In this document: in pieces, positions 10,162 to 18,363 of the stretch
Position numbering within the stretch: the stretch's first letter is position 1
How the letters are laid out: each line of letters opens with the position of its first letter
IMG/VR virus record: IMGVR_UViG_3300036782_000036
Location: 1 to 34,520 of that record
DNA length: 34,520 nt
DNA from: a virus
Reading direction: 5' to 3' (one strand)
Notes under the pieces: generated by a model
Database searches by the model: none
Told to the model about the DNA's origin: nothing
The model's input: the letters and a program-made list of their open reading frames with translations, nothing else
Position numbers and translations under genes: made by a program

Positions 10162-10524
10162 ATGAACCTGCTCGCCAGCGTCCTCCGCACCGTCGTCCCG
10201 CTCCTGGCCGGATGGATCCTCACCGTCACCGGCGCTCTCGGCATCGAGGCCGACTCGACCGTGGTCGCCGGCGGCATCACCGCCGCCGTCACCCTCGCCT
10301 ACTACACCCTCCTCCGCCTGGCCGAAGAGCTCGCCTCCCGCATCGGCTGGGAGCCGGGCCGCCTCATCGCCGGCCTCTTCCTCGGCTGGGCCCGACCGCC
10401 CGCCTACGAGCAGCCGACCGCCACCGTCCCGGTTCGCGTCCACTTCGACAAGGAGGCCCTGCGCCTCGACGTTGGCGAGGCCCTGCGGCGCGCCGCCCAG
10501 GACGTGGAGAGGCGCCGCCCGTGA
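10162..10524 (+). CDS. Putative holin (120 aa, two predicted transmembrane helices, charged C-terminus)
   Basis: Directly after the endolysin gene. Hydrophobic segments VVPLLAGWILTVTGALGI and VVAGGITAAVTLAYYTLL. The long upstream extensions in the ORF track (9409..) overlap the endolysin out of frame and are spurious. Confidence 0.65.
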   Translation: MNLLASVLRTVVPLLAGWILTVTGALGIEADSTVVAGGITAAVTLAYYTLLRLAEELASRIGWEPGRLIAGLFLGWARPPAYEQPTATVPVRVHFDKEALRLDVGEALRRAAQDVERRRP

Positions 10525-10844
10525 CCGGCATCCCCGGCCTCGATATCGCGGCCGCCATCGCCGCCGCGATCGCCGCGCTCGGCGGCGCGCTCGCCCTGCT
10601 CTACCGCTGGGCCCGCGGCCTACGCCGAGGCCTCACCCGCCTCGGCGACTTCCTCGACGACTGGTTCGGCGTCGACGCGCGCCCGGGCGTCTCGGCGCGC
10701 CCCGGAGTCATGCAGCGGCTGTGCTCCCTGGAGGACGAAGTCGCCGGCATCAAGCACGAGCTCCACCCCAACTCAGGCAGCAGCCTCCGGGACGCGGTCG
10801 ACCGAGTCGACGCCCGCACCGCCCACCTCGACAAGGCCCCGTAG
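10521..10844 (+). CDS. Lysis-cassette membrane protein (107 aa, N-terminal TM helix plus helical C-terminal region)
   Basis: GTGA overlap with the holin stop. N-terminal segment IAAAIAAAIAALGGALALLY. The C-terminal part RLCSLEDEVAGIKHELHPNSGSSLRDAVDRVDART resembles actinophage lysis-region membrane proteins. Confidence 0.6.
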   Translation: MTGIPGLDIAAAIAAAIAALGGALALLYRWARGLRRGLTRLGDFLDDWFGVDARPGVSARPGVMQRLCSLEDEVAGIKHELHPNSGSSLRDAVDRVDARTAHLDKAP

Positions 10845-10851
10845 CCCACGA

Positions 10852-10879
10852 CGCCCCCTCTCGCTCGCGAGAGGGGGCG
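10852..10879 (+). terminator. Intrinsic terminator-like hairpin closing the late operon
   Basis: Perfect 12-bp stem CGCCCCCTCTCG/CGAGAGGGGGCG with a 4-nt loop, 8 nt after the stop at 10844. A T-containing tail (CATTCGTCTGTTCT) follows. Confidence 0.8.
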
Positions 10880-10961
10880 CATTCGTCTGTTCTGGGGCAC
10901 ACGACAAGGGCCTTGCCCCCTACTCTGATCGGTGTCGAGTCGTTCAGAGAGGGGCAAGGCC

Positions 10962-12215
10962 GTGTCGCTTCATGCTACCCCGGACCCGTACGCCAACCCG
11001 GCGGCTTTCGGGCAGAGAATGCAGATCCTCCGTGAGCGCCGCGGCATGACCCGCCAGGTGCTCGCCGGGCTCCTTGGGAAGTCGACCGACTGGGTGAAGT
11101 CCGTCGAGTCCGGCCGCATGCAGGCGCCCGGGATCGAGATGGTCTACCGGATCGCCGAGGCTCTGCGCGTGCGCGAGCTCTCCGACCTTACTGGCCACGG
11201 CGAGTACAAGGTGGACTTGTTCCTTGGCCCCGGGCATCCACGCCTGGCCGCTGTCAGGGCCGCCATCGAGGCGCGCCCTCTCGGCACGCCGGGAAGCGCA
11301 CCACCGAGGGCGGAGCACCTGGCCGCCAGGCTCGCTGTTGCCTGGAAGGCTCGGCACGAGGCCGCCAACCACCGAGAGAAGATCGGTGCGTTGTTGCCAG
11401 ACCTGATCCGAGACGCCCAGCTCTCCGTCAAGCACGCCGGGGAGCCCTCGGAGTGGCGCGCGGCGCAGGCCGTCCTCGCCGAGGTCTACTCGCTCGCGCA
11501 GTTCTTCCTCGCGTACCAGCCCGACCCGTCGCTCCTCTGGCGTGTTGCGGAGCGCGGCATGGTGGCCGCTGAGCAGTCCGACGACCCGCACGCGATCGGT
11601 GTCTCGTCCTGGCTCCTCGCCCAGGCCCACCGCGACACCGGCCCCTCCCACTACGACCAGGCCGACAGCATCACCAACCAGGCACTGGAGTACCTGACCC
11701 CGCTCCTGCCCGACGCCACGGACGACATCCTCGCCATCGCGGGTGCCCTGACCTTCGAGGCCGGCTACACCGCCGCCCGTAGGGGATCAACGGCCGCCGC
11801 CTGGCACCGGTGGGACACCGCCCGCGAGATGGCCGAGCGCCTGCCAGCCTCCTACTACCACCCCATCACGTCGTTCTCCCAGGCCATCATGGGCGCGCAC
11901 GCGGTCACAGTCGCCGTCGAGCTACACCACGGACCGGAATCGGTACGGCAGGCCGCCCAGGCGGATGTGGCGACCATCCCCTCCAGGCCCCGACGGGCCC
12001 GCCATCGGATCGAGGAGGCCCGCGGCTACCAGCTCGACGGTCAGCCCGACGTCGCCATCGCCACCCTGGAGAAAGCCCACCACGCGGCCCCGGAGACGAT
12101 CCGCTACAACGGCTACGCGCGGTCGATCATCTTGGAACAGACGGAGTCCAAGGTTGCGCACCGCCGCCGCCGGGCCGCCGAACTCGCCGTAGAGATGGGG
12201 CTCCTGGCAGCCTGA
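10962..12215 (+). CDS. XRE-family HTH regulator with a long all-helical (TPR-like) C-terminal domain (418 aa; 427 aa if GTG 10932 is used)
   Basis: The N-terminus FGQRMQILRERRGMTRQVLAGLLGKSTDWVKSVESGRMQAPGIEMVYRIAEAL is a classic HTH_3/31 motif. The remaining ~330 aa are Ala/Leu-rich helical repeats. GTG 10962 follows GAGAGGGG. Hairpin terminators flank the gene on both sides. Confidence 0.8.
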   Translation: MSLHATPDPYANPAAFGQRMQILRERRGMTRQVLAGLLGKSTDWVKSVESGRMQAPGIEMVYRIAEALRVRELSDLTGHGEYKVDLFLGPGHPRLAAVRAAIEARPLGTPGSAPPRAEHLAARLAVAWKARHEAANHREKIGALLPDLIRDAQLSVKHAGEPSEWRAAQAVLAEVYSLAQFFLAYQPDPSLLWRVAERGMVAAEQSDDPHAIGVSSWLLAQAHRDTGPSHYDQADSITNQALEYLTPLLPDATDDILAIAGALTFEAGYTAARRGSTAAAWHRWDTAREMAERLPASYYHPITSFSQAIMGAHAVTVAVELHHGPESVRQAAQADVATIPSRPRRARHRIEEARGYQLDGQPDVAIATLEKAHHAAPETIRYNGYARSIILEQTESKVAHRRRRAAELAVEMGLLAA

Positions 12216-12225
12216 CACAAGGGGG

Positions 12226-12242
12226 GGGGAGGATTCCTCCCC
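12226..12242 (+). terminator. Short hairpin after the XRE/helical-repeat gene
   Basis: GGGGAGG-ATT-CCTCCCC (7-bp stem, 3-nt loop), 11 nt after the stop. It is preceded by a G9 run. The U-tract is weak. Confidence 0.45.
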
Positions 12243-12308
12243 TCTACTCCGCGAGACCCCCCATAGCGTCGTGGTCAGGCAGAAGACGACCACGTCGGGG
12301 GTGTCCTC

Positions 12309-12575
12309 GTGTTGACGATCAAGGTCTATCGGGTGGGGAGCGACGGCACCACCGTGCCTGTCGCTCCGGCCTATAAGGTGCAGCCGGCCACGGAGCCTTC
12401 GGCCACGACCGCGTACCCGCCCTGCGGCTGCCCGAGACACCGCCGTCGCGAGTGGTGCGACTTCCACAAGGGTCCGTCGCAGAGCGCCGTTCCGGTCGAT
12501 GAGCACCGCCTCGCCTGCGCGCCTTGCCGCGAGCAGCGGAGCCTCGCCCCGCGCGCTGAGGCGGGGCAGCGGTGA
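12309..12575 (+). CDS. Hypothetical Cys/His-rich small protein (88 aa)
   Basis: GTG start. High GC3. Motifs CGCPRH, WCDFH and CAPC. Its stop overlaps the next start (GTGA). Confidence 0.55.
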   Translation: MLTIKVYRVGSDGTTVPVAPAYKVQPATEPSATTAYPPCGCPRHRRREWCDFHKGPSQSAVPVDEHRLACAPCREQRSLAPRAEAGQR

Positions 12576-12769
12576 CAACGACCAAGGAGTGGGTGATCCC
12601 GCCGTACGCCAACCTCACCTGGGAGCAGCACGCCGGGCGGAACTGCGTGTTCTGCGACCGCCCGCTCCATCAGGGGGCCCGGGAAGTCGGCCGGGTCAGG
12701 CGTGACTACGGCGTCCCGCTCCGGGACGTGCCGGTCTACGCGGGCCCCTGCTGCCTCGGCACCCCGTGA
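12572..12769 (+). CDS. Hypothetical Cys-containing small protein (65 aa)
   Basis: GTGA coupling at both ends. Motifs CVFC and PCC. High GC3. Confidence 0.55.
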   Translation: MTTTKEWVIPPYANLTWEQHAGRNCVFCDRPLHQGAREVGRVRRDYGVPLRDVPVYAGPCCLGTP

Positions 12770-12849
12770 GCGAGTGGCAGCGGCAAGCCCTCTACTGCCT
12801 GATCGTCCTCGGCATACTCGCCGTCCTCGTCGCCGGCATCACCACCTGA
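12766..12849 (+). CDS. 27-aa single-pass membrane micro-protein (not in the ORF track)
   Basis: GTG 12766 overlaps TGA 12767-12769. Hand translation gives VSEWQRQALYCLIVLGILAVLVAGITT then a stop at 12847-12849. It is the third member of a translationally coupled chain. Confidence 0.45.
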   Translation: MSEWQRQALYCLIVLGILAVLVAGITT

Positions 12850-12913
12850 CGGCCCTCGATGTCCCCTCTGGTCCATAGGATGGGCGGGCCGCCACGAGAG
12901 GAAATGATCACAA

Positions 12914-13321
12914 ATGCGCCCCCAGCGATTCACCGACTACGTCCTCGACCTCGCCAAGAACGCGCCCGGCATCGTCCGGGTGCAGACCCTCGCCGAGGCC
13001 GGCGACACCAAGCGGCCGTTCGGCCTGGCCATCACGACGTCGAGCGGCGAGAACCGGTGGCAGTTCATGGGGCAGCTCCCGGACGGAGCGAAGCACGAAG
13101 GCTTCACCGACGAGCCGGTGACCGGCACCCCTGCGCCGGCCATGGGCGACCCGGCTACCGCCGGCTCCCCCGAGGCGTGGCTCGCGGCCGTCCTCGCCGG
13201 CGCCGAGTGCCCGGAGATCTCCGCCATTGGCCGGTGGTCCACCAGCTCCGAGGGGGCCGCGCAGCGTGGCATCACTGTCGACTTCCACGACGGCTCGCGG
13301 ATCTTCGCGCGCCAGCTCTAG
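12914..13321 (+). CDS. Hypothetical protein (135 aa)
   Basis: ATG preceded by GAGAGGAAA (12897-12905). Good GC3. No recognised family. Confidence 0.65.
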   Translation: MRPQRFTDYVLDLAKNAPGIVRVQTLAEAGDTKRPFGLAITTSSGENRWQFMGQLPDGAKHEGFTDEPVTGTPAPAMGDPATAGSPEAWLAAVLAGAECPEISAIGRWSTSSEGAAQRGITVDFHDGSRIFARQL

Positions 13322-13395
13322 ACCCTCCCCGGTCACGGCCGGGGAGTGCACATCGCACCACCGTCAGCACCACCTACACACAGGAGGAACTGATC

Positions 13396-13542
13396 ATGCG
13401 ATTCGACCCCGGCATGTGCGAGGGGAACTGCCCGGTCTGCGGCGCCGGCGTGGGCAGCTCGCCCGGCACCCCGACGACGATGCACCAGCGCGCCGGGACC
13501 GGCACGGAGACCTGCCCGGGGAGCGGCCAGCCCGCCCTGTAA
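13396..13542 (+). CDS. 48-aa Cys-rich (zinc-ribbon-like) micro-protein
   Basis: ATG 8 nt after CAGGAGGAA (13381-13389). Sequence MRFDPGMCEGNCPVCGAGVGSSPGTPTTMHQRAGTGTETCPGSGQPAL. A strong hairpin follows. The ORF-track entry 12859..13542 is a spurious upstream extension. Confidence 0.55.
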   Translation: MRFDPGMCEGNCPVCGAGVGSSPGTPTTMHQRAGTGTETCPGSGQPAL

Positions 13543-13552
13543 CCGCGTAACG

Positions 13553-13583
13553 AGCCCCGGCCGGACCATCCACGGCCGGGGCT
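13553..13583. terminator. Bidirectional terminator hairpin between convergent genes
   Basis: 11-bp perfect stem AGCCCCGGCCG/CGGCCGGGGCT with a 9-nt loop. It lies between the + strand stop at 13542 and the - strand stop at 13582. Confidence 0.7.
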
Positions 13584-13824
13584 ACTCGAACAGCTGGCCT
13601 GGCGGGATGCCTATCGCGTCCGCCAGGAGCAGGACTGTGTCGACCGTGGGCGCGGCTCGTCCCGCCTCGATTTCTTGGACTGTCGCGCGCCCGAGCCCGC
13701 TCCGCTCGCAAACGGCCTGCTGGGTCAAGTTGGCGTAGAGCCTTGCGTCCCGCACCCGTGCGCCGAATACGGCCCGGCGGGCGAGGACCCAGTCGGGCGG
13801 CGGGGCTGATTTCGGGCGGACCAC
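13582..13824 (-). CDS. Small XRE/Cro-CI-type HTH regulator (80 aa)
   Basis: RVRDARLYANLTQQAVCERSGLGRATVQEIEAGRAAPTVDTVLLLADAIGIPPGQLF is a canonical HTH_3 domain. The GTG start lacks a clear RBS, so the true start may be internal or the mRNA may be leaderless. Confidence 0.75.
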   Translation of the reverse strand: MVRPKSAPPPDWVLARRAVFGARVRDARLYANLTQQAVCERSGLGRATVQEIEAGRAAPTVDTVLLLADAIGIPPGQLFE

Positions 13825-13932
13825 AGGGCAACGTTCGTCGCTTCTTGATCATTTGTATGCACGGCTAGCCAGGCATTTTTTGATCTTGAACGGCGCGCGT
13901 CACCCTGGGCCGCCCGATCCGGGCGGCTCCGG

Positions 13933-14910
13933 CTAGGGCACGTCCCGGTCCCTGCTCGTCGCCCACCACACCATCAACTGATTCGTGGAACGCAAGCCGA
14001 GATCATCCCGGAGCGCCTCAAGGTCGCGTCCCACCTCCCGGCCGCTCACGCCGAGTTGGCCGGCGACGACCGCCTGAGTATCTCCCTTGGCGAGCCCCCG
14101 CAGGATCATCCGCTGTTGCGGCGTCGTGACCGCGTCCGCCAGGGCGGCCCGAGCCTCCTGCCACGGGGTGGCCCTGTCCCAGTACCCCTGAAATACAGCG
14201 AGAGCGAATGCAGTGCAGGCGATGTCTTTGATGTGCCAGCCCGCATGGGCCTCGCTGCTCAGCACATGGTTGTCCACGAAGAGATTCGTCCCCGCCATGA
14301 CCATGCGGGGCGGAAGCTCTTGACCGACACGGACCTCGCCGCCCTCCGCGAGCACGACCTCCACGTACCTCGCCGTCGGCGCGTGCGCGAGGGCGGCAGA
14401 GGGGTACAGGGACCGTACGGGGATGCCTCGCACCAGGAGAGCGCGAGCTCTGCGGAGGCCCTCCTCCAGGACGGCCGGGTCTCGCTCAGTCGGCACGCCA
14501 GGCTGGACGGTGTAGAGGCCGCCCTCCGCGTCTGTCGCAAGCACGTGCTTGATGTGTTCGTTCATCAGCGCCTTGCTGTGCACGAACTCGCTTGCGGGGC
14601 CGCCATAGAGACGTGCGGGGTCATAGTGCCGCGCCAGACGTTCGAGGGCCGACACCCGCCCCATCTGATCAAGAGTGCGGGCCAGGGCCGCATGATGCTC
14701 CGCGAGGAGCTGTTGCGCGACGACGCGGGGATCCAGGGCGACAAGCTCGTCGCCGATTTGGCGGACGAGGCCGAGCTGAACGAGCCGGGTCACGGAGGCA
14801 GACGCCTCGACCGGTCGACCCTCCGCGATGTCGCGGTAGACGCGCTCCTCGTCGGGAGTGAGGGCAAGATCTTCAACGATTTCCATACCGCGCCGCCTGT
14901 TCTTGTCCAC
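13933..14910 (-). CDS. Transcriptional regulator: N-terminal winged-helix (TrmB-like), central unknown domain, C-terminal LuxR/GerE HTH (325 aa)
   Basis: The C-terminus TTPQQRMILRGLAKGDTQAVVAGQLGVSGREVGRDLEALRDDLGLRSTNQLMVWW is a LuxR-type HTH. The N-terminus LTPDEERVYRDIAEGRPVEASASVTRLVQLGLVRQ looks like a wHTH. An ATG at 14886 is an alternative start. Confidence 0.8.
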   Translation of the reverse strand: MDKNRRRGMEIVEDLALTPDEERVYRDIAEGRPVEASASVTRLVQLGLVRQIGDELVALDPRVVAQQLLAEHHAALARTLDQMGRVSALERLARHYDPARLYGGPASEFVHSKALMNEHIKHVLATDAEGGLYTVQPGVPTERDPAVLEEGLRRARALLVRGIPVRSLYPSAALAHAPTARYVEVVLAEGGEVRVGQELPPRMVMAGTNLFVDNHVLSSEAHAGWHIKDIACTAFALAVFQGYWDRATPWQEARAALADAVTTPQQRMILRGLAKGDTQAVVAGQLGVSGREVGRDLEALRDDLGLRSTNQLMVWWATSRDRDVP

Positions 14911-15037
14911 TTTCAGACGTGTCCCAAATTTCTCAGGAAAGCCCCTGGCATACGCCTAATGCACATGTCAGCGTAGGGGTCACGTCAAGAGTACGGATGC
15001 ATGTTCTATTTGTGATCGACACTCGGAGGGATGACCT

Positions 15038-15208
15038 ATGGGACAGAGCGTGACCAGAACCGTGGCGGCCGTGCTGGTTTCGGTTGCCGCCGTGATCGGT
15101 ATCGGGGCCACCGCCCACGCGGAGGACCCCGGATGGGGCGGGCCGGCGCCGACCGTCTCCACCCCCACGCCGACGCCCACCGCCGCGAACGATCCCGGCT
15201 GGGGGTAA
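15038..15208 (+). CDS. Secreted small peptide precursor (56 aa): Sec signal peptide plus a 28-aa mature part with two DPGWG motifs (not in the ORF track)
   Basis: ATG 7 nt after GGAGGG (15025-15030). Hand translation: MGQSVTRTVAAVLVSVAAVIGIGATAHA|EDPGWGGPAPTVSTPTPTPTAANDPGWG, then TAA 15206-15208. About 49 of 56 codons end in G/C by my count. The overlapping 192-aa ORF 15031..15609 is Arg-rich nonsense in this stretch. Confidence 0.6.
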   Translation: MGQSVTRTVAAVLVSVAAVIGIGATAHAEDPGWGGPAPTVSTPTPTPTAANDPGWG

Positions 15209-15345
15209 GGCTCCGGCACGTCTTGGTCACTCGTCCGTCAACCCCACATGGCGGATGCGCTCTGATATCGGCCCACGCGCACCATGAGAACGCGCAACGG
15301 GGGAACCCCTTGATCCGGCCCCGACGGCCGGGATGGGTGGGAGAA

Positions 15346-15609
15346 ATGACGGACGTAGTCCGTGTAGTAGTGCTTGGAGTACTGGCCCTCGGTGTCGTCG
15401 CCATGGCCTTCACGTTCAGGTCTCTGCGGAGCCAGGTCGACGACTTGCGCGCTGAGGTCGCATGCCTCCGAATCGAACGACTCCTCGGAGAGCCCGTGGC
15501 CGCGCCGGCGGACCGTGCACGGCCGCGGCGTCCCGAGCTCGGCATCATCGTTGGCGCCTTCGTCGGCGCCATTACTGCCACGGCCGCCACGTGGCTTCTG
15601 TGGGGGTGA
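15346..15609 (+). CDS. Small membrane protein (87 aa) with TM helices at both termini and a central amphipathic/coiled segment
   Basis: ATG after GGGTGGGAGAA. Segments VVRVVVLGVLALGVVAMAF and LGIIVGAFVGAITATAATWLLW flank SLRSQVDDLRAEVACLRIERLL. It contains many A/T-ending codons (gta, gga, cga, gaa, att, act), which is atypical for this genome. Confidence 0.65.
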   Translation: MTDVVRVVVLGVLALGVVAMAFTFRSLRSQVDDLRAEVACLRIERLLGEPVAAPADRARPRRPELGIIVGAFVGAITATAATWLLWG

Positions 15610-15621
15610 AGCATCACCCCC

Positions 15622-15671
15622 GATGCCCCGGCAGTCACGGCCGTGCCCCACGGCCCGGCTGCCGGGGCATC
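15622..15671. terminator. Compound bidirectional terminator between the membrane-protein gene and the integrase gene
   Basis: 13-bp perfect outer stem GATGCCCCGGCAG/CTGCCGGGGCATC encloses a 7-bp inner hairpin GGCCGTG-CCC-CACGGCC. It lies between the convergent stops at 15609 and 15687. Confidence 0.75.
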
Positions 15672-15686
15672 GGCGCATCACGCCCC

Positions 15687-16976
15687 CTAGGCCGAGGCAA
15701 CAGCCCGGAGGGAGGGGCGGCCGCCCTGGAGCGTCGTCTCGATCGTTTCCATGGCATCGTCGTCCGCTTCCGGCAGGAGGTGCCCGTACAGATCCGACGT
15801 GGTCTTGATCGACTCGTGCCCGAGGCGCCGCTGTACGTAGGTGAGCGAGTGGCCGGCCGAGATGAGCGCGGCCGCGTGCGAGTGCCGTAGGTCGTGCGGG
15901 GTCGGGCGCTTGTAGACCGGGAGCATCCCGTCCTTCTTCGCCTTGCGGATCGCACGCTGCCACCGGTCATAGAAGGTGCTGTAGTGGAGCCGCTGCCCCT
16001 GGTCTCCCGTGAAGAACAGGCCGTCGTCGTCGAGGCCCTCGACCCTGCGTAGTTCGTCCAGCGCCTCGATCACGGACGTACTGACCCGGATGGTGCGCCG
16101 CCCCCGCTTGGACTTGGGCATGCCGACGTAGTAGCCGCCCTCGCCGTCCTTCTTCCATGCCCGATGGACCTGGAGCCGTATGCGAGCGGGGTCGGAGTCG
16201 AGGAGGCAGTACGGCGCAAGCGCCGTGAGCTCGCTGTACCGCAGCCCTGTCCCGTACTTGACCTCCACCATCAGCTGGTCCTGGCGGATGGTGAGCCGGT
16301 CCCGGATGGCCGCCACTTCTTGCGGGGTGAGGAACTCGATGTCCTCGTCCTCGGGAGTAGCGCCGCCGTCGTCGCGGCGGGGCAGGTTGGTCCGCTCGCA
16401 TGGGTTGCGAGCACGGAGCGGCGGCTCGGCCTGGACAGCCTCGTTGAGGATCGAGCTAAGGAGGCCGTGGAGGTTCCTGATGGTCTTGGGGGACATTGGC
16501 CTGTTGCGGGGGCCACGCCCCTTCCGCACCTTGGTCTGCTCCAAGACACGGACCCATGCACGGATGGTGTCACTCGAAAAGTGTTTGACGCTGCGGACGT
16601 CGCATTCGCCGAAGGTCGGGAAGATGTACATCTCCAACTCGCGGTGGCACGCCTTGCGGTAGTGCTCCTCGATGCCGGTTCGCAGGTCGATGGTCCGGGT
16701 GGCGTAGGCGCGGAATCGGTACCGCGCATCGTCGATGGCGTCGGCCTCCTCGGGGACGATGTACCCCTTCCCCTTGATCCATCCCGCAGGCCACCGCTGG
16801 CCAGCCTCGTCGACGGCCTGCTTGAAGATGTCAGCCGCGGCTTTGCCTTCGTCGTCGCCGTCGAACTTCTCCGTCGCCCACTGGGGGTCACCAGGTCGGC
16901 GGTTTGCGTCTCGCCACTTCACCTGGTAACTGGTGATCTCTCCATCGCGGCTCTTCCGCGGGTGCACGCTCGCCAT
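15687..16976 (-). CDS. int: Tyrosine-type integrase (site-specific recombinase, 429 aa)
   Basis: Catalytic-domain motifs TGLRYSEL, HDLRHSHAAALISAG and LGHESIKTTSDLYGHL (R...HxxR...Y). An N-terminal SAM-like/arm-binding region is present. It lies adjacent to the tRNA-like attP core. Confidence 0.92.
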   Translation of the reverse strand: MASVHPRKSRDGEITSYQVKWRDANRRPGDPQWATEKFDGDDEGKAAADIFKQAVDEAGQRWPAGWIKGKGYIVPEEADAIDDARYRFRAYATRTIDLRTGIEEHYRKACHRELEMYIFPTFGECDVRSVKHFSSDTIRAWVRVLEQTKVRKGRGPRNRPMSPKTIRNLHGLLSSILNEAVQAEPPLRARNPCERTNLPRRDDGGATPEDEDIEFLTPQEVAAIRDRLTIRQDQLMVEVKYGTGLRYSELTALAPYCLLDSDPARIRLQVHRAWKKDGEGGYYVGMPKSKRGRRTIRVSTSVIEALDELRRVEGLDDDGLFFTGDQGQRLHYSTFYDRWQRAIRKAKKDGMLPVYKRPTPHDLRHSHAAALISAGHSLTYVQRRLGHESIKTTSDLYGHLLPEADDDAMETIETTLQGGRPSLRAVASA

Positions 16977-17074
16977 GGCGTGACACTAGACCCTGTGTTC
17001 CCGTCGCGTTCCCACGGGGCAGTGAATTTGAGGCGAGGCACCCCCATCCTTGCAGGTGGAGGGCCTGTCGCCGC

Positions 17075-17099
17075 TGGTGCCCGGAACCGGACTCGAACC
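17075..17099 (-). other. tRNA 3'-end mimic (T-loop, acceptor 3' strand, discriminator, CCA); putative crossover core
   Basis: The minus strand reads GGTTCGAGTCCGGTTCCGGGCACCA. No complete cloverleaf can be folded upstream, so this is a fragment and not a tRNA gene. Confidence 0.7.
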
Positions 17100-17151
17100 T
17101 GTTCCGACTAGGCGCCTGACCTGCGATAACGCTGTGAGCTCTACGTTTCTT

Positions 17152-17180
17152 ACCGCCGGGACCCGTTTGGGCCCGGCGGT
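17152..17180. terminator. Hairpin downstream of the repressor-like gene, inside the attP arm
   Basis: 9-bp stem ACCGCCGGG/CCCGGCGGT with an 11-nt loop. TCCCGTTTC follows on the + strand. Confidence 0.4.
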
Positions 17181-17297
17181 TCCCGTTTCAGGCCGCCTCT
17201 GTGTTCCCGTGGGAACACAGGCGGGAACACCGCAGGTCGAGCAGGGGTGAAGCGCGCCGAGCGATGACATGGCGGGAACTCGTCGCCGAGGCCTCAA

Positions 17298-17708
17298 TCA
17301 GGCCGTGCGTCGTGCCTCGGGCGGGATGCGGTCGCCGAGTCGGCGGAGAACTTCCGCCTGCACTCGCACGGGGAGGCTGTCCAGGATTGTGAGGATCGCC
17401 GCGGCCTGCGGATCGATCGGCTCATCCTGCGGGGGCGCCGCCGGGATTGGCGCGGCCGTTTCCACGGTCGGCTCACCGCCGGCCATCACGTCATCCGCAC
17501 TGCGCACGGTCCAGCCGAGGGCCCGTTCCAGCTTCCGATACGTAACGGGGCTGACGCGCACCCCCTTGCGGATCTTGGCGAGGGTCTCGATGGAAAAGTC
17601 TGCGCGCTCGGCGACCTCGGTGAACTGCATCCCTTGTGCGGCGATGTAGTTCTCCACGGTGTCGCCGAGTCTGGCGAGCTCCTCGGCTCCGTACCCAGCC
17701 TCCGTCAT
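17298..17708 (-). CDS. CI-like repressor candidate (HTH, 136 aa), probably on a leaderless mRNA
   Basis: HTH segment MQFTEVAERADFSIETLAKIRKGVRVSPVTYRKLERAL. It is divergent from a Cro-like gene across an operator-rich region. There is no SD. A TAGCTT -10-like hexamer ends 6 nt before the ATG. Confidence 0.75.
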   Translation of the reverse strand: MTEAGYGAEELARLGDTVENYIAAQGMQFTEVAERADFSIETLAKIRKGVRVSPVTYRKLERALGWTVRSADDVMAGGEPTVETAAPIPAAPPQDEPIDPQAAAILTILDSLPVRVQAEVLRRLGDRIPPEARRTA

Positions 17709-17902
17709 GCGGCCAAGCTACAGCTTGGCTCCAACTTGCTCCAATGCCCTCCCAGCCACATGACCGTTTTTCACTGCACCATCACGTTTCGATGATCAGA
17801 TTCCGCAACGTGGTGCCACGTTGGAACGCCCACCCTCCAACCTTGGACAAGATCGCTCCAATTTCCGCTTGACCAACTCCAACGTTGGAGTATGTTGGAG
17901 TC
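17709..17902. promoter_or_regulatory. Lysis/lysogeny switch region: back-to-back promoters and repeated CTCCAA/TTGGAG operator half-sites
   Basis: CTCCAA at 17729, 17739, 17835, 17856 and 17877. TTGGA(G/A/C) at 17821, 17843, 17885 and 17895. A 16-bp perfect palindrome ACTCCAACGTTGGAGT lies at 17876-17891. An inverted repeat CAACGTGG-TG-CCACGTTG lies at 17806-17823. GC content is visibly reduced. Confidence 0.75.
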
Positions 17903-18121
17903 ATGTTGAACCGCACGGTTGACGGCCGAAAGGTCCGCGACCTGCGGCGACGACGCGGCCTGTCGGTCGTCGCCGTCGCTGAGGCCGCAGGCTGCTCGAA
18001 GTGGATGATCTACAAGATCGAAACGGGGGCGAACCAGCCCTCGCCCCGCGTCTACGCCGGAATGCGAGACGTCCTTAAGGCGACTGAGTCCCAGCTCCTG
18101 CGCGGCAGGAGGGCTCGGTAA
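17903..18121 (+). CDS. Cro-like HTH regulator (72 aa)
   Basis: HTH segment VRDLRRRRGLSVVAVAEAAGCSKWMIYKIETGANQPS. TTGACC (17869-17874), a 16-nt spacer and TATGTT (17891-17896) sit just upstream, placing the transcription start at about the ATG. The ORF-track TTG start at 17885 is less likely. Confidence 0.75.
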   Translation: MLNRTVDGRKVRDLRRRRGLSVVAVAEAAGCSKWMIYKIETGANQPSPRVYAGMRDVLKATESQLLRGRRAR

Positions 18122-18363
18122 TGCCGCTCTCCCCTAACTACACCGTCGCCGAGGCCGCAGAGCTCCTTCGCTGCAAGGAGCGGTACCTCGAAGACAACCT
18201 GTCCCGGCTGCCTCACCAGAAGATCGGCATCGCCGTCGCCTTCGACGACGAAGACCTCGCCGCGATCAAGGACATGCACCGGGTCCGCCCGCAGCGTGCG
18301 ACCGCTGATGTCGCGCCCCGAACCCTCGCGCAGATCCGCCCCAAGGGCGCGCGCGCTTCCTGA
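18121..18363 (+). CDS. Excisionase/MerR-like HTH DNA-binding protein (80 aa)
   Basis: YTVAEAAELLRCKERYLEDNLSRLPHQKIGIAVAFDDEDLAAI resembles the HTH_17/excisionase family. Its start overlaps the upstream stop by 1 nt (TAATG). Confidence 0.6.
   Translation: MPLSPNYTVAEAAELLRCKERYLEDNLSRLPHQKIGIAVAFDDEDLAAIKDMHRVRPQRATADVAPRTLAQIRPKGARAS

What the first reader, a model, noticed from the sequence alone, without database searches (positions are those of the whole stretch)
10880..12242. HTH plus long helical-repeat protein (RRNPP-like architecture) as a stand-alone unit between two terminators
The 418/427-aa protein combines an N-terminal XRE HTH with about 330 aa of Ala/Leu-rich helical repeats. 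This is the domain layout of peptide-sensing RRNPP receptors such as AimR, PlcR, PrgX and NprR.

It sits immediately after the late-operon terminator (10852-10879). Its own hairpin (12226-12242) follows it. It must therefore have its own promoter, and it is a good candidate for expression in the lysogen.

The phage already has a conventional repressor/Cro pair at 17298-18121, so this is extra regulatory capacity. It could be the receptor for the DPGWG peptide, a second immunity function, or the regulator of the downstream micro-ORF operon.
Basis: partly seen in the sequence, partly recalled or inferred. Interest (0 to 1): 0.65.

Follow-up and report, generated by a model that had tools for sequence, protein, structure and literature searches.

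The report
Portable HTH–TPR regulator cassette in phage
This is a real, separately transcribed phage gene for a DNA-binding regulator with a TPR-type sensor domain. It belongs to a very common, uncharacterised Streptomyces family carried by phages, conjugative elements and chromosomal islands, and nothing found here marks it as a peptide quorum-sensing receptor.

Summary
The gene is 10962-12215 (+) and encodes 417 aa; the 10932 start is not used. The N-terminus is an XRE/HTH_31 domain. The C-terminal ~320 aa is predicted with high confidence (pLDDT 96.6) to be a TPR-type solenoid.

The gene is an autonomous unit. A strong terminator lies upstream (10852-10879). A conserved 68-nt leader follows (10897-10964). 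A hairpin follows the stop codon (12220-12245), and its position is conserved in 62/62 distinct loci.

The RRNPP reading is only an architectural resemblance:
- No secreted propeptide gene is adjacent, here or in relatives.
- The TPR part is the most conserved region and the HTH recognition helix the most variable, which by my recollection is the reverse of RRNPP pherotypes.
- The DPGWG peptide co-varies with a different, adjacent 325-aa regulator.

Homologues at 67-89% identity occur in several hundred Streptomyces genomes. Of 80 loci examined, 22 had phage genes upstream, 1-3 had conjugative-element markers, and 52 lay in non-syntenic chromosomal contexts with no phage genes detected.

The leader's base-pairing pattern fits a minus-strand RNA hairpin (G·U cells 93 vs 5, replicated 132 vs 17). 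This suggests a cis-antisense RNA over the ribosome-binding site. Function is inferred, not shown.

The parts
10852..10879 (+). Terminator-type hairpin closing the tail/lysis (late) operon
   Evidence: Perfect inverted repeat CGCCCCCTCTCGC/GCGAGAGGGGGCG. MFE -35.5 kcal/mol, z -4.6, 0/200 shuffles fold as well. Equivalent hairpins followed by a T-containing TTCGT tail occur in the S. laurentii and S. anthocyanicus prophages.
10897..10964 (-). Conserved 68-nt leader element, best read as a minus-strand RNA hairpin. The outer arms are 10909-10919 and 10951-10961, with an inner CTCTGA/TCAGAG stem. On the minus strand a T-rich tail follows (10908-10897, CTTGTCGTGTGC). The element overlaps the SD and start codon of the HTH-TPR gene.
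   Evidence: - RNAalifold on 57 distinct loci: minus strand -23.8 kcal/mol with 14 pairs; plus strand -10.9 with 9 pairs.
- Canonical pairing is 98.6% on minus vs 87.6% on plus. G·U cells are 93 vs 5.
- Covariance model R1 gives a single hit in the window: 72 bits on minus, 34 bits on plus.
- R1 finds the element at the 5' end of the gene in 74/80 independent genome loci.
- The asymmetry is the same there: 95.1% vs 83.7% canonical, G·U 132 vs 17.
- No Rfam family matches.
10921..10926 (+). TACTCT, a -10-like hexamer (TANNNT). It is the candidate promoter of the HTH-TPR gene and lies in the apical part of the leader.
   Evidence: TA[C/G]NCT is present at this position in 74/74 independent genome loci: TACCCT 53, TACTCT 12, TACGCT 7, TAGTCT 2. 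Conservation is >=90% per base in the IMG/VR set. Promoter activity is not shown, and the consensus scan did not call it.
10947..10954 (+). Shine-Dalgarno GAGAGGGG, 7 nt before the GTG start
   Evidence: Read from the sequence. Conserved (A/G)GAGAGGGG in the leader alignments.
10962..12215 (+). CDS of the 417-aa HTH-TPR regulator, stop codon included
   Evidence: - Start position is fixed by 63/67 homologous loci.
- phrog_5823 'transcriptional regulator' matches full length, E 1.6e-98.
- 1503 homologues have E<=1e-5.
11004..11171 (+). XRE-type HTH_31 DNA-binding domain (residues 15-70). The recognition helix is around residues 41-49 (STDWVKSVE).
   Evidence: Pfam HTH_31 E 1.3e-10. PDB sequence matches to C.AhdI, SinR and 434 repressor cover the HTH only. 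The recognition helix falls into at least 5 discrete types among relatives.
11244..12212 (+). TPR-type helical solenoid (residues 95-417, about 15 helices). This is the conserved, presumed sensor or partner-binding domain.
   Evidence: - AF2 pLDDT 96.6, pTM 0.93.
- Foldseek top hits are TPR superhelices.
- 1307 clusters at 50% identity match at E<=1e-3, and the full-length ones (most of the 150 listed) are about 400-415 aa with the domain at the same position.
- Median identity to relatives is 71%, against 63% for the HTH part.
- Per-window amino-acid conservation is 0.85-0.95, against 0.60-0.65 for residues 31-60.
10972..10977 (-). TAGCAT on the minus strand (ATGCTA on plus, codons 4-6). It is a candidate -10 of an antisense promoter that would start about 10965 and end at the leader hairpin and T tail, giving an RNA of about 65-70 nt.
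   Evidence: - Codons 4-6 are GAT/GCT/ACC in 58, 58 and 60 of 60 IMG/VR-set sequences. Elsewhere in the gene GAT is 11% of Asp codons and GCT 7% of Ala codons.
- In 74 independent genome loci a minus-strand TANNNT sits here in 51 (69%), against 1.1% of comparable windows elsewhere in the gene.
- Transcription has not been shown.
12220..12245 (+). Hairpin after the stop codon (AGGGGGGGGGAGGATTCCTCCCCTCT).
   Evidence: Position is conserved in 62/62 distinct loci with different, compensating stems such as GGGGCAGG/CCTGCCCC, GGGGACCGG/CCGGTCCTC and GGGGGCACA/TGTGCCCCT. G·U pairs appear on the plus strand. The single-sequence z-score is only -1.2.
12309..13321 (+). Downstream same-strand small ORFs: 12309-12575 (88 aa), 12572-12769 (65 aa), 12914-13321 (135 aa). 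They fill the variable cargo slot of the cassette.
   Evidence: High GC3 in the respective frames. No Pfam or PHROG match. The equivalent slot in other loci holds unrelated families, including DUF6415.
13582..13824 (-). Small (80-aa) XRE HTH protein, convergent with the cassette. It is the most frequent co-occurring neighbour.
   Evidence: HTH_31 E 3.6e-13. A homologue lies downstream in at least 41 of 67 loci at 37-95% identity, and also in several genome loci.

Best explanation
**What it is.** The gene encodes a one-component transcription factor. An XRE-type helix-turn-helix domain binds DNA. A C-terminal TPR-type solenoid acts as the conserved sensing, partner-binding or oligomerising module.

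**How it is organised.** The gene is a self-contained, portable cassette. From left to right it has the terminator of the preceding operon, a conserved leader with its own -10-like element, the CDS, and its own hairpin. It sits in the accessory ('moron') slot between the lysis genes and attP/integrase.

**Where else it occurs.** The same cassette, leader included, is found in other temperate phages with tyrosine or serine integrases. It is also found next to actinomycete integrative-conjugative element genes, and in non-syntenic chromosomal sites of hundreds of Streptomyces species.

**Most likely role (inferred).** It is transcribed independently of the late operon, plausibly in the lysogen. 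It acts on DNA targets that differ between lineages, because the recognition helix is variable. The most probable targets are the variable cargo genes that travel immediately downstream, and/or its own promoter.

**Its own control (inferred).** Expression is probably set by a short cis-antisense RNA, or at least by a minus-strand RNA hairpin with a T tail, that covers its ribosome-binding site and start codon.

**What it is not.** It is not an RRNPP peptide quorum-sensing receptor, and it is not the receptor of the DPGWG peptide.

**Shown here:** domain architecture, predicted fold class, start site, cassette boundaries, distribution, and the conservation patterns.

**Inferred:** DNA targets, the ligand or partner, lysogenic expression, and the existence of the antisense RNA.
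For: **Architecture.**
- HTH_31.
- TPR-type fold at pLDDT 96.6, with TPR superhelices as Foldseek hits.
- TPR_12 hits in distant members.
- Full-length match to phrog_5823.

**Autonomy.**
- Strong upstream terminator.
- Conserved post-stop hairpin in 62/62 loci.
- The leader travels with the gene in 74/80 independent genome loci, whatever the context.
- TA[C/G]NCT is present in 74/74 of them.

**Position in phages.** The gene lies after the lysis cassette and before the integrase in OnionKnight, Cumberbatch, Chymera and prophages L003, L005 and L158. It lies after the lysis cassette in SF1. In phiHau3 it is next to the serine integrase.

**Portability.**
- Of the 80 best loci, 22 have phage genes upstream, 52 have none, and no host synteny is shared.
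- One copy is next to RepSA/FtsK/resolvase genes of a conjugative element.
- There are orphan copies in S. formicae and Streptomyces sp. R302.
- Flanking phage genes are mosaic. The window's endolysin is found in 26/66 loci and its holins in 1-5/66, whereas the regulator is at 71% identity in all.

**Variable DNA specificity, conserved TPR.**

**Antisense control.**
Against: - No operator was found. The leader arms occur only once as a pair in the window.
- No recognition-helix-type-specific k-mer is shared near the gene.
- The repeat search of 10840-18300 gave only noise.
- The link between HTH type and downstream cargo family is partial and could be phylogenetic.
- No transcription data exist for either strand.
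- The minus-strand TANNNT is absent in 31% of genome loci.
- The G·U asymmetry could partly reflect tighter constraint on the arm next to the start codon.
- The covariance-model alignment is fitted to a minus-strand model, which favours it.
- The structure is a prediction, and no ligand or partner is identified.
- 'Other' contexts were classed by similarity to a limited panel of phage proteins, so some may be unrecognised prophages.
Confidence: 0.5

Rival explanations
1. It is an RRNPP-type intracellular receptor of a secreted signalling peptide (DPGWG or another). It would set lysis-lysogeny as AimR does.
For: - The domain layout and length (417 aa) fit the RRNPP signature (criteria quoted from PMC10075063).
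- With the full-length model, Foldseek lists PlcR, ComR, PrgX and phi3T Rap among the hits at E about 1e-3.
- A secreted DPGWG-repeat peptide is encoded 2.8 kb away.
Against: - No adjacent small secreted propeptide ORF is present in the window or conserved in 67 loci. The downstream ORFs are variable and lack a signal-peptide-like N-terminus by a simple hydropathy heuristic.
- With the HTH removed, no RRNPP receptor is in the top 50 structural hits.
- The TPR is the most conserved region and the HTH the most variable. By my recollection this is the reverse of pherotype evolution.
- DPGWG is present in only a handful of loci and tracks the adjacent 325-aa regulator. It stays identical in Chymera, where the HTH-TPR protein is 33% identical, and becomes DVGWG where that regulator diverges.
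- Most chromosomal copies have no phage around them.
Confidence: 0.06
2. It is a second immunity or superinfection-exclusion repressor. In the lysogen it would bind operators of related incoming phages or elements and block them.
For: - The recognition helix falls into discrete types, as in heteroimmune repressors.
- The gene lies in the slot where temperate phages carry lysogen-expressed accessory genes.
- The HTH resembles repressor and controller HTHs.
Against: - The phage already has a small repressor/Cro-type pair.
- No repeated operator-like motif was found in the window.
- Two thirds of the genome copies examined are not in recognisable prophages, and one is in a conjugative element.
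- A roughly 320-aa conserved TPR is not needed for simple repression.
Confidence: 0.14
3. It is a host-reprogramming regulator captured from the chromosome. It would act on host promoters, for example development or specialised metabolism, for the benefit of the element or the lysogen.
For: - More distant family members (31-53% identity) are ordinary chromosomal genes. Some sit beside DUF397 and HATPase_c_2 genes, the partners of WhiJ/BldB/AbaA-type developmental loci.
- An 82%-identical orphan copy sits beside ATP-grasp (MvdD-type) and PCMT methyltransferase genes.
- The conserved TPR across hosts would fit a conserved host partner.
Against: - A conserved host target would predict a conserved recognition helix, yet that is the most variable part.
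- No conserved chromosomal neighbourhood exists.
- No characterised member was found in the literature searched.
Confidence: 0.15
4. The leader inverted repeat is not an antisense RNA. It would instead be a DNA operator for autoregulation, or a plus-strand mRNA hairpin that hides the SD in read-through transcripts.
For: - The arms bracket the -10-like TACTCT and the SD, a typical place for an autoregulatory operator.
- The plus-strand fold in this window is perfect and significant: -36.1 kcal/mol, z -3.2.
- Both half-sites fit GGYCYYGCCCC.
Against: - The arm sequence class does not co-vary with the recognition-helix type.
- In most relatives the plus-strand stem has C·A mismatches exactly where the minus strand has G·U: 93 vs 5, and 132 vs 17 in an independent set.
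- Divergent relatives L062 and L063 keep the pairing with different arm sequences.
Confidence: 0.3

Closest known systems
RRNPP receptors (AimR, PlcR, NprR, PrgX, Rgg/ComR, Rap)
   Same: N-terminal XRE-type HTH followed by a TPR-type solenoid in a 250-500-aa cytoplasmic protein. The gene is carried on a mobile element. PlcR, ComR, PrgX and Rap appear among Foldseek hits of the full-length model.
   Different: - No neighbouring secreted propeptide.
- No TPR HMM hit in this protein.
- No RRNPP receptor among the top 50 hits of the C-terminal domain alone.
- The TPR is conserved and the HTH variable.
- Actinobacterial host; by my recollection, described RRNPP systems are in Firmicutes and their elements (PMC10075063 concerns those).
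PHROG family phrog_5823 ('transcriptional regulator') and NCBI 'helix-turn-helix domain-containing protein' of Streptomyces
   Same: Full-length membership: E 1.6e-98 over residues 23-425 (427-aa numbering) against profile positions 4-403 of 404. It is 67-71% identical to gp26 of OnionKnight and gp24/25 of the Cumberbatch group.
   Different: Nothing differs. This is the family it belongs to, and no member has a tested function in the literature I could search.
WhiJ-like XRE regulators of Streptomyces with DUF397 (BldB-like) and HATPase_c_2 (AbaA-like) partners
   Same: Actinobacterial HTH_31 regulators followed by small same-strand ORFs. Distant relatives of this protein sit beside DUF397 or HATPase_c_2 genes.
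   Different: WhiJ paralogues are about 280 aa with a DUF5753 C-terminus (my recollection). This protein has no DUF5753 hit at E<=1. No DUF397 gene is present in the window's cassette.
Phage 'morons' (autonomous accessory transcription units between late genes and att)
   Same: The unit is flanked by a terminator upstream and a hairpin downstream. It has its own leader, lies between lysis and attP/integrase, and is found in otherwise mosaic phages.
   Different: Classical morons encode conversion or exclusion effectors rather than a large sensor-regulator. Promoter activity and lysogenic expression were not shown here.
Short cis-antisense RNAs of temperate phages (lambda OOP, P22 sar)
   Same: The predicted RNA is about 65-70 nt, made of a stem-loop with a T tail, and is transcribed against the 5' end or RBS of a regulatory gene. 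This comparison is from my own knowledge.
   Different: No sequence or Rfam relationship exists. The RNA's existence is inferred only from covariation and conserved rare codons.

Membership tests
RRNPP quorum-sensing system (five-criterion signature of PMC10075063) | Receptor about 250-500 aa | tested here: met
   417 aa.
RRNPP quorum-sensing system | Receptor harbours TPRs detectable by TPR HMMs | tested here: inconclusive
   No TPR HMM hit in this protein at E<=1. A TPR-type fold is predicted. TPR_12 hits occur in 6/70 distant relatives.
RRNPP quorum-sensing system | Small (10-100 aa) propeptide gene is a direct neighbour of the receptor gene | tested here: not met
   The direct neighbours are a holin-like ORF (10521-10844) and an 88-aa ORF without a signal-peptide-like N-terminus. 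Downstream neighbours in 64 loci belong to many unrelated families.
RRNPP quorum-sensing system | Propeptide secreted via Sec (or PptAB) and matured to a short peptide | tested here: not met
   A heuristic signal-peptide scan of all 10-100-aa ORFs within -400/+600 nt found none in the window and no conserved candidate elsewhere. The only Sec-type peptide nearby (DPGWG, 15031-15207) pairs with another regulator.
RRNPP quorum-sensing system | Peptide binds the TPR groove and switches DNA binding | not testable with these tools
   Needs ITC, thermal shift or structures.
XRE / HTH_31 DNA-binding proteins | Cro/C1-type helix-turn-helix domain | tested here: met
   HTH_31 E 1.3e-10, HTH_3 E 4e-6. 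PDB matches C.AhdI, SinR and 434 repressor over the HTH.
phrog_5823 | Full-length match to the family profile | tested here: met
   E 1.6e-98, profile positions 4-403 of 404.
TPR-solenoid proteins | Right-handed superhelix of paired antiparallel helices | tested here: met
   This holds for the predicted structure only. pLDDT 96.6 with 15 helices. Top Foldseek hits are LGN/Pins, CTPR, BtubC, KLC and Pex5 at TM 0.4-0.55.
WhiJ/BldB/AbaA-type modules | HTH_31 + DUF5753 regulator with an adjacent DUF397 small protein | tested here: not met
   No DUF5753. No DUF397 among the window's neighbours. DUF397 or HATPase_c_2 neighbours are seen only for 32-53%-identical relatives.
CI/LexA-type or ImmR/ImmA-type inducible repressors | HTH plus S24 peptidase domain, or a partner ImmA/IrrE metalloprotease | tested here: not met
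   No peptidase domain or neighbour. PADLOC RmrA hits cover only the HTH.
Moron (autonomous accessory transcription unit) | Own promoter and terminator, inserted between conserved phage modules | tested here: inconclusive
   The flanking hairpins and the conserved leader with TANNNT are present. Promoter activity was not measured.

The most novel reading that the evidence does not exclude
The leader, antisense RNA, HTH-TPR gene and variable downstream cargo together form a previously unrecognised, highly mobile sensory switch of Streptomyces mobile elements. Its strongly conserved TPR domain would sense one conserved host- or element-derived protein or peptide. The diversifying HTH would couple that signal to whatever cargo travels with it, such as defence, exclusion or lysogeny functions. 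The switch itself would be gated by a cis-antisense RNA.
Probability: 0.2. Interest if true: 0.7.

Novelty: new variant of a known kind. Interest (0 to 1): 0.4.

Why it matters
If the inference holds, hundreds of Streptomyces genomes and many of their temperate phages and conjugative elements share one uncharacterised regulator cassette. Finding the ligand or partner of its conserved TPR domain, and its DNA targets, would show how these elements read the state of a developmentally complex, antibiotic-producing host.

The work also redirects the search for phage peptide signalling in this genome. The D[P/V]GWG peptide and the regulator next to it are the better candidates, not this gene.

As it stands, the gene itself is a catalogued 'HTH DNA-binding protein' of unknown function, so the immediate surprise value is moderate.

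Tried and rejected
- **Megablast of 10500-13000 against phage records.** No match. Relatives are visible only at the protein level.
- **Sequence searches of the C-terminal domain.** Pfam, NCBIfam, PADLOC and PDB gave nothing beyond the HTH.
- **BFVD structure search.** Uninformative.
- **Rfam on 10500-13000.** Nothing relevant.
- **Operator hunting.**
  - The leader arm motif occurs only as the one pair in the window.
  - The repeat search of 10840-18300 gave only high-GC noise.
  - A k-mer enrichment by recognition-helix type found no type-specific motif near the gene.
- **Autoregulatory operator idea.** Weakened because arm class and recognition-helix type do not co-vary.
- **TTA (bldA-dependent) codon in the gene.** None.
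- **'Always right after the lysis cassette' and 'phage-restricted'.** I held these after the first contexts. I rejected them after sampling species-representative genomes.
- **'Vertically inherited core gene'.** Rejected because no flanking gene family is shared at a fixed position.
- **Literature.** Eight full-text searches found no characterised member. The Samy prophage transcriptome paper and the S. lincolnensis paper turned out not to concern this family.
- **Synonymous-site entropy.** Only mildly reduced over the first 20 codons as a window (0.88 vs about 1.07). The signal is concentrated in codons 4-6.
Full report
**1. What is in the sequence**

The region holds one long, high-GC3 ORF on the plus strand. 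It runs 10932-12215, 427 codons from the first GTG.

Comparison with 66 related loci fixes the start. In 63 of 67 loci the ATG/GTG lies exactly at the position of window 10962, directly after a conserved GGGGC[A/G]AG[G/A]CC motif. Database homologues are 416-417 aa. The product is therefore 417 aa (10962-12215), with a GAGAGGGG Shine-Dalgarno at 10947-10954.

- Residues 15-70 are an XRE-type HTH_31 domain, E 1.3e-10.
- The remaining ~320 aa match nothing by sequence in Pfam, NCBIfam, PADLOC or the PDB.
- The whole protein matches PHROG family phrog_5823 ('transcriptional regulator') end to end, E 1.6e-98.

**2. Fold of the C-terminal part**

AlphaFold2 on an 84-sequence alignment gave pLDDT 87.8 for the full protein. 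With a 140-sequence alignment including 25-52%-identical relatives, residues 95-417 gave pLDDT 96.6 and pTM 0.93, with 15 helices.

Foldseek against the PDB behaves differently for the two models:
- With the full-length model, generic TPR proteins (BtubC, LGN, KLC) are mixed with PlcR, ComR, PrgX and phi3T Rap at E 3e-4 to 1e-2.
- With the C-terminal domain alone, the top 50 are all generic TPR superhelices (LGN/Pins, consensus TPR, BtubC, KLC, Pex5; TM 0.4-0.55). No RRNPP receptor is among them.

Six of 70 distant family members hit Pfam TPR_12, and two hit TPR_MalT.

The 'HTH plus helical-repeat' observation is therefore right, and the repeat is TPR-type. The specific resemblance to RRNPP receptors comes from the shared two-domain layout, not from the sensor domain.

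**3. Is it a stand-alone unit?**

*Upstream hairpin.* The 10852-10879 hairpin is a perfect 12-13-bp stem, -35.5 kcal/mol, z -4.6. Equivalent hairpins with a TTCGT tail follow the lysis genes in related prophages.

However, a hairpin 5-20 nt after the stop exists in 62/62 distinct loci. The stems differ and compensate, for example GGGGCAGG/CCTGCCCC, GGGGACCGG/CCGGTCCTC and GGGGGCACA/TGTGCCCCT. G·U pairs appear on the plus strand. In the window the full stem is 12220-12245.

*Leader.* Between the upstream terminator and the start codon lies a ~68-nt leader that is conserved base for base. It contains a -10-like TA[C/G]NCT (TACTCT, 10921-10926), present in 74/74 independent genome loci.

Promoter activity is not shown, and the simple consensus scan called nothing here.

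**4. The leader looks like a minus-strand RNA element**

The leader carries an 11-nt inverted repeat, 10909-10919 and 10951-10961, plus an inner CTCTGA/TCAGAG pair.

*Covariation.* Across 57 distinct loci the arms co-vary: GGCCTTGCCCC...GGGGCAAGGCC versus GGTCTCGCCCC...GGGGCGAGACC. Relatives at 52% and 61% identity have other complementary arms, such as AAGCCCCGCC/GGCGGGGCTT.

*Strand asymmetry.*
- RNAalifold gives -23.8 kcal/mol and 14 pairs on the minus strand, against -10.9 and 9 pairs on the plus strand.
- For the same 14 pairs, 98.6% of cells are canonical on minus and 87.6% on plus. G·U cells number 93 on minus and 5 on plus.
- Where the plus strand would have C·A mismatches, the minus strand has G·U.

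*Replication.* A covariance model built on the minus strand hits the window once (10897-10964, 72 bits; plus strand 34 bits). It detects the element in relatives that were not used to build it. In 80 independent species-representative genomes it finds the element at the gene's 5' end in 74. The asymmetry there is the same: 95.1% vs 83.7% canonical, G·U 132 vs 17. That alignment is fitted to the model.

*Other minus-strand features.* On the minus strand the hairpin is followed by a T-rich stretch, the complement of the conserved CACACGAAAA.

Codons 4-6 of the gene are fixed as GAT-GCT-ACC in 58-60 of 60 sequences. Elsewhere in the gene GAT and GCT are 11% and 7% of their codon families. On the minus strand this reads TAGCAT, a TANNNT -10-like hexamer at 10977-10972. 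In the independent genome set a minus-strand TANNNT sits there in 69% of loci, against 1.1% background.

*Reading.* My interpretation is inferred, not shown. A ~65-70-nt cis-antisense RNA would run from about 10965 to about 10898. It would cover the SD and start codon of the regulator gene and face the gene's own promoter.

The main alternative is a DNA operator or a plus-strand SD-sequestering hairpin. It is weakened because the arm class does not co-vary with the protein's recognition-helix type. It is not excluded. The arm next to the start codon may simply be more constrained. In this window the plus-strand fold is perfect (z -3.2). No Rfam family matches.

**5. Where the gene occurs**

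*In phages.* tblastn finds it in 30 Streptomyces phage records:

| Phage(s) | Identity |
|---|---|
| OnionKnight | 71% |
| Cumberbatch group | 67% |
| Chymera | 33% |
| SF1 / SF3 | 28% |
| phiHau3-like | ~26% |

In the phage records and prophages examined (OnionKnight, Cumberbatch, Chymera, L003, L005, L158) it lies after the lysis cassette and before the integrase. In SF1 it lies after the lysis cassette. In phiHau3 it is next to the serine integrase. The window is syntenic with Chymera, and its 136-aa repressor is 82% identical to Chymera gp33 'immunity repressor'.

*It is not phage-restricted.*
- There are 1503 database hits at E<=1e-5.
- Among the 80 best loci (67-82% identity), 22 have phage structural or lysis genes within 10 kb upstream.
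- One to three of the 80 have FtsK/RepSA conjugative-element markers.
- 52 of the 80 have neither.
- Upstream neighbours there include TetR, MFS, catalase, thiolase and P450 genes.
- No flanking family is shared at a fixed position, so this is not a syntenic core gene.

*Individual cases.*
- An orphan cassette with a DUF6415 gene between sugar-kinase and GH115 genes in S. formicae.
- A copy beside resolvase/RepSA/FtsK genes in S. niveus.
- An 82%-identical orphan beside MvdD-type ATP-grasp and PCMT genes.

*The wider family.* It comprises 1307 clusters at 50% identity with E<=1e-3. The full-length members, which are most of the 150 listed, are about 400-415 aa with the same architecture. It includes ordinary chromosomal genes, some beside DUF397 or HATPase_c_2 genes.

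The leader travels with the gene in all these contexts. The unit of mobility is therefore leader, gene, hairpin and downstream small ORFs together.

**6. What the conservation pattern says**

Within the 60 distinct sequences of the IMG/VR set, amino-acid conservation is lowest over residues 31-60 (0.60-0.65). It is highest in the TPR part (0.85-0.95). Median identity to the window is 63% for the HTH and 71% for the TPR part.

The recognition helix falls into at least five discrete types: STDWVKS, SPSWVKQ, SGSWVKG, SVEWVKR and SPHTL[K/R]K.

The flanking phage genes are mosaic. The window's endolysin is recognisable in 26/66 loci, its holins in 1-5/66 and its downstream ORFs in 1-5/66.

The slot immediately downstream holds many unrelated small-protein families, including DUF6415. 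A small convergent XRE protein (13582-13824 here) is the most constant companion, present in at least 41/67 loci.

A conserved sensor domain with a diversifying DNA-binding surface and variable adjacent cargo fits a regulator that couples one conserved input to lineage-specific targets. RRNPP receptors behave differently: by my recollection it is the peptide-binding TPR that diversifies in them.

**7. RRNPP membership and the DPGWG peptide**

I used the five-criterion signature stated in PMC10075063.
- Receptor length: met.
- TPR by HMM: not met for this protein, but supported by the predicted fold and by relatives.
- Adjacent small propeptide gene: not met.
- Secreted propeptide: not met.

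The DPGWG prepeptide (15031-15207) has a signal peptide and a mature part that starts EDPGWG and ends in DPGWG. It is always divergent from a 316-365-aa regulator, which is 13936-14910 here.
- In Chymera that regulator is 68% identical and the peptide keeps DPGWG, while the HTH-TPR protein is only 33% identical.
- In L035 and L066 the regulator is 37-40% identical and the peptide ends in DVGWG.
- The pair is present in only a few of the loci that carry the HTH-TPR gene.

The peptide therefore belongs to the neighbouring regulator, not to this protein.

**8. Most likely mechanism, and confidence**

*Shown:* domain architecture, predicted fold class, start site, cassette boundaries, distribution and conservation patterns.

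*Inferred:*
- The protein binds DNA through its HTH, probably as an oligomer held by the TPR part.
- It is expressed from its own promoter independently of the late operon, plausibly in the lysogen.
- It controls its co-transferred cargo and/or itself in response to a conserved protein or peptide partner.
- It is held in check by a cis-antisense RNA.

I put about 0.5 on this package, about 0.85 on 'HTH-TPR transcription factor in an autonomous portable cassette', and about 0.55-0.6 on the minus-strand RNA.

| Rival reading | Confidence |
|---|---|
| Second immunity or exclusion repressor | 0.14 |
| Host-reprogramming regulator | 0.15 |
| RRNPP peptide receptor | 0.06 |

No operator could be found. 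No characterised family member turned up in the literature searches.

**9. Novelty and interest**

The protein belongs to a catalogued but functionally untested family (phrog_5823). Its kind, an XRE-HTH plus TPR one-component regulator on a mobile element, is known.

It departs from the characterised examples in four ways: it lacks a cognate peptide, its conservation pattern is reversed, it is portable across phages, conjugative elements and islands, and it has a conserved leader with an antisense signature. I class it as a new variant of a known kind and rate interest at 0.4.

The more unusual item in this window is the D[P/V]GWG peptide-regulator pair, which lies outside the finding I was given.

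Noticed in passing
window 13936-14910 (-) and 15031-15207 (+); also L068 9046-9996/10142-10321 (Chymera gp29/gp30), L008, L003/L004, L035, L066, L158 12755-14033: A 59-aa Sec-type prepeptide has a mature part that starts EDPGWG and ends in DPGWG. It is always divergent from a 316-365-aa regulator that has no Pfam hit and a C-terminus that looks LuxR-like by eye. Where the regulator drops to 37-40% identity, the peptide's C-terminus changes to DVGWG. This pherotype-like co-variation suggests a peptide-signalling cassette of Streptomyces temperate phages.
   Followed up: partly
window 10897-10977: The conserved leader of the regulator gene pairs almost perfectly only on the minus strand (G·U 93 vs 5; replicated 132 vs 17). 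It has a T-rich tail on that strand. Rare codons GAT-GCT are fixed and read TAGCAT on the minus strand. Together these suggest a candidate ~65-70-nt cis-antisense RNA with no Rfam match.
   Followed up: yes
window 13582-13824 (-): An 80-aa XRE HTH protein lies convergent with the cassette. Homologues lie 0.8-4 kb downstream of the HTH-TPR gene in at least 41/67 loci, at only 37-50% identity for most. Its HTH also matches the phrog_5823 profile (E 3e-7). It may be a partner or antagonist.
   Followed up: partly
L008 7343-7789, L011 7333-7728, L075 10309-10659, L158 11345-11821: In many loci the first gene after the HTH-TPR gene is a DUF6415 protein. In others it belongs to unrelated small families, several of them Cys-rich. 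The window's own three ORFs (12309-13321) match nothing.
   Followed up: partly
L157 10001-14417 (Streptomyces sp. R302): An 82%-identical orphan copy with its leader sits between TetR/MFS genes and two small ORFs. These are followed by an MvdD-type ATP-grasp ligase and a PCMT-type methyltransferase, which looks like a graspetide-type RiPP cluster.
   Followed up: no
L076 2161-10254 (S. niveus CP018047): A 71%-identical copy lies at the edge of an integrative-conjugative element with resolvase, RepSA and FtsK/SpoIIIE genes. The cassette is therefore shared between phages and conjugative elements.
   Followed up: partly
window 12267-12297: A second inverted repeat, CGTCGTGGTC/GACCACGTCG (10 nt, 90% complementary, 11 nt apart), lies between the regulator's hairpin and the first downstream ORF. 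Its role is unknown; it could be an operator or a second stem.
   Followed up: no
several loci about 50 nt after the regulator's stop (e.g. L017, L024): A conserved GTGAGACGGATCACCG stretch follows the post-stop hairpin in about 20 of 60 loci, across different cargo families. It is absent from the window. It may be a shared promoter or leader of the cargo slot.
   Followed up: no
whole window: The window equals a whole 34,520-bp contig. It reads as a circularly permuted temperate siphophage genome syntenic with Streptomyces phage Chymera, in the order tail, Amidase_2 endolysin, holin-like ORFs, cassette, tyrosine integrase 15687-16976, repressor 17298-17708. No nucleotide-level match was found in the phage collection.
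   Followed up: partly
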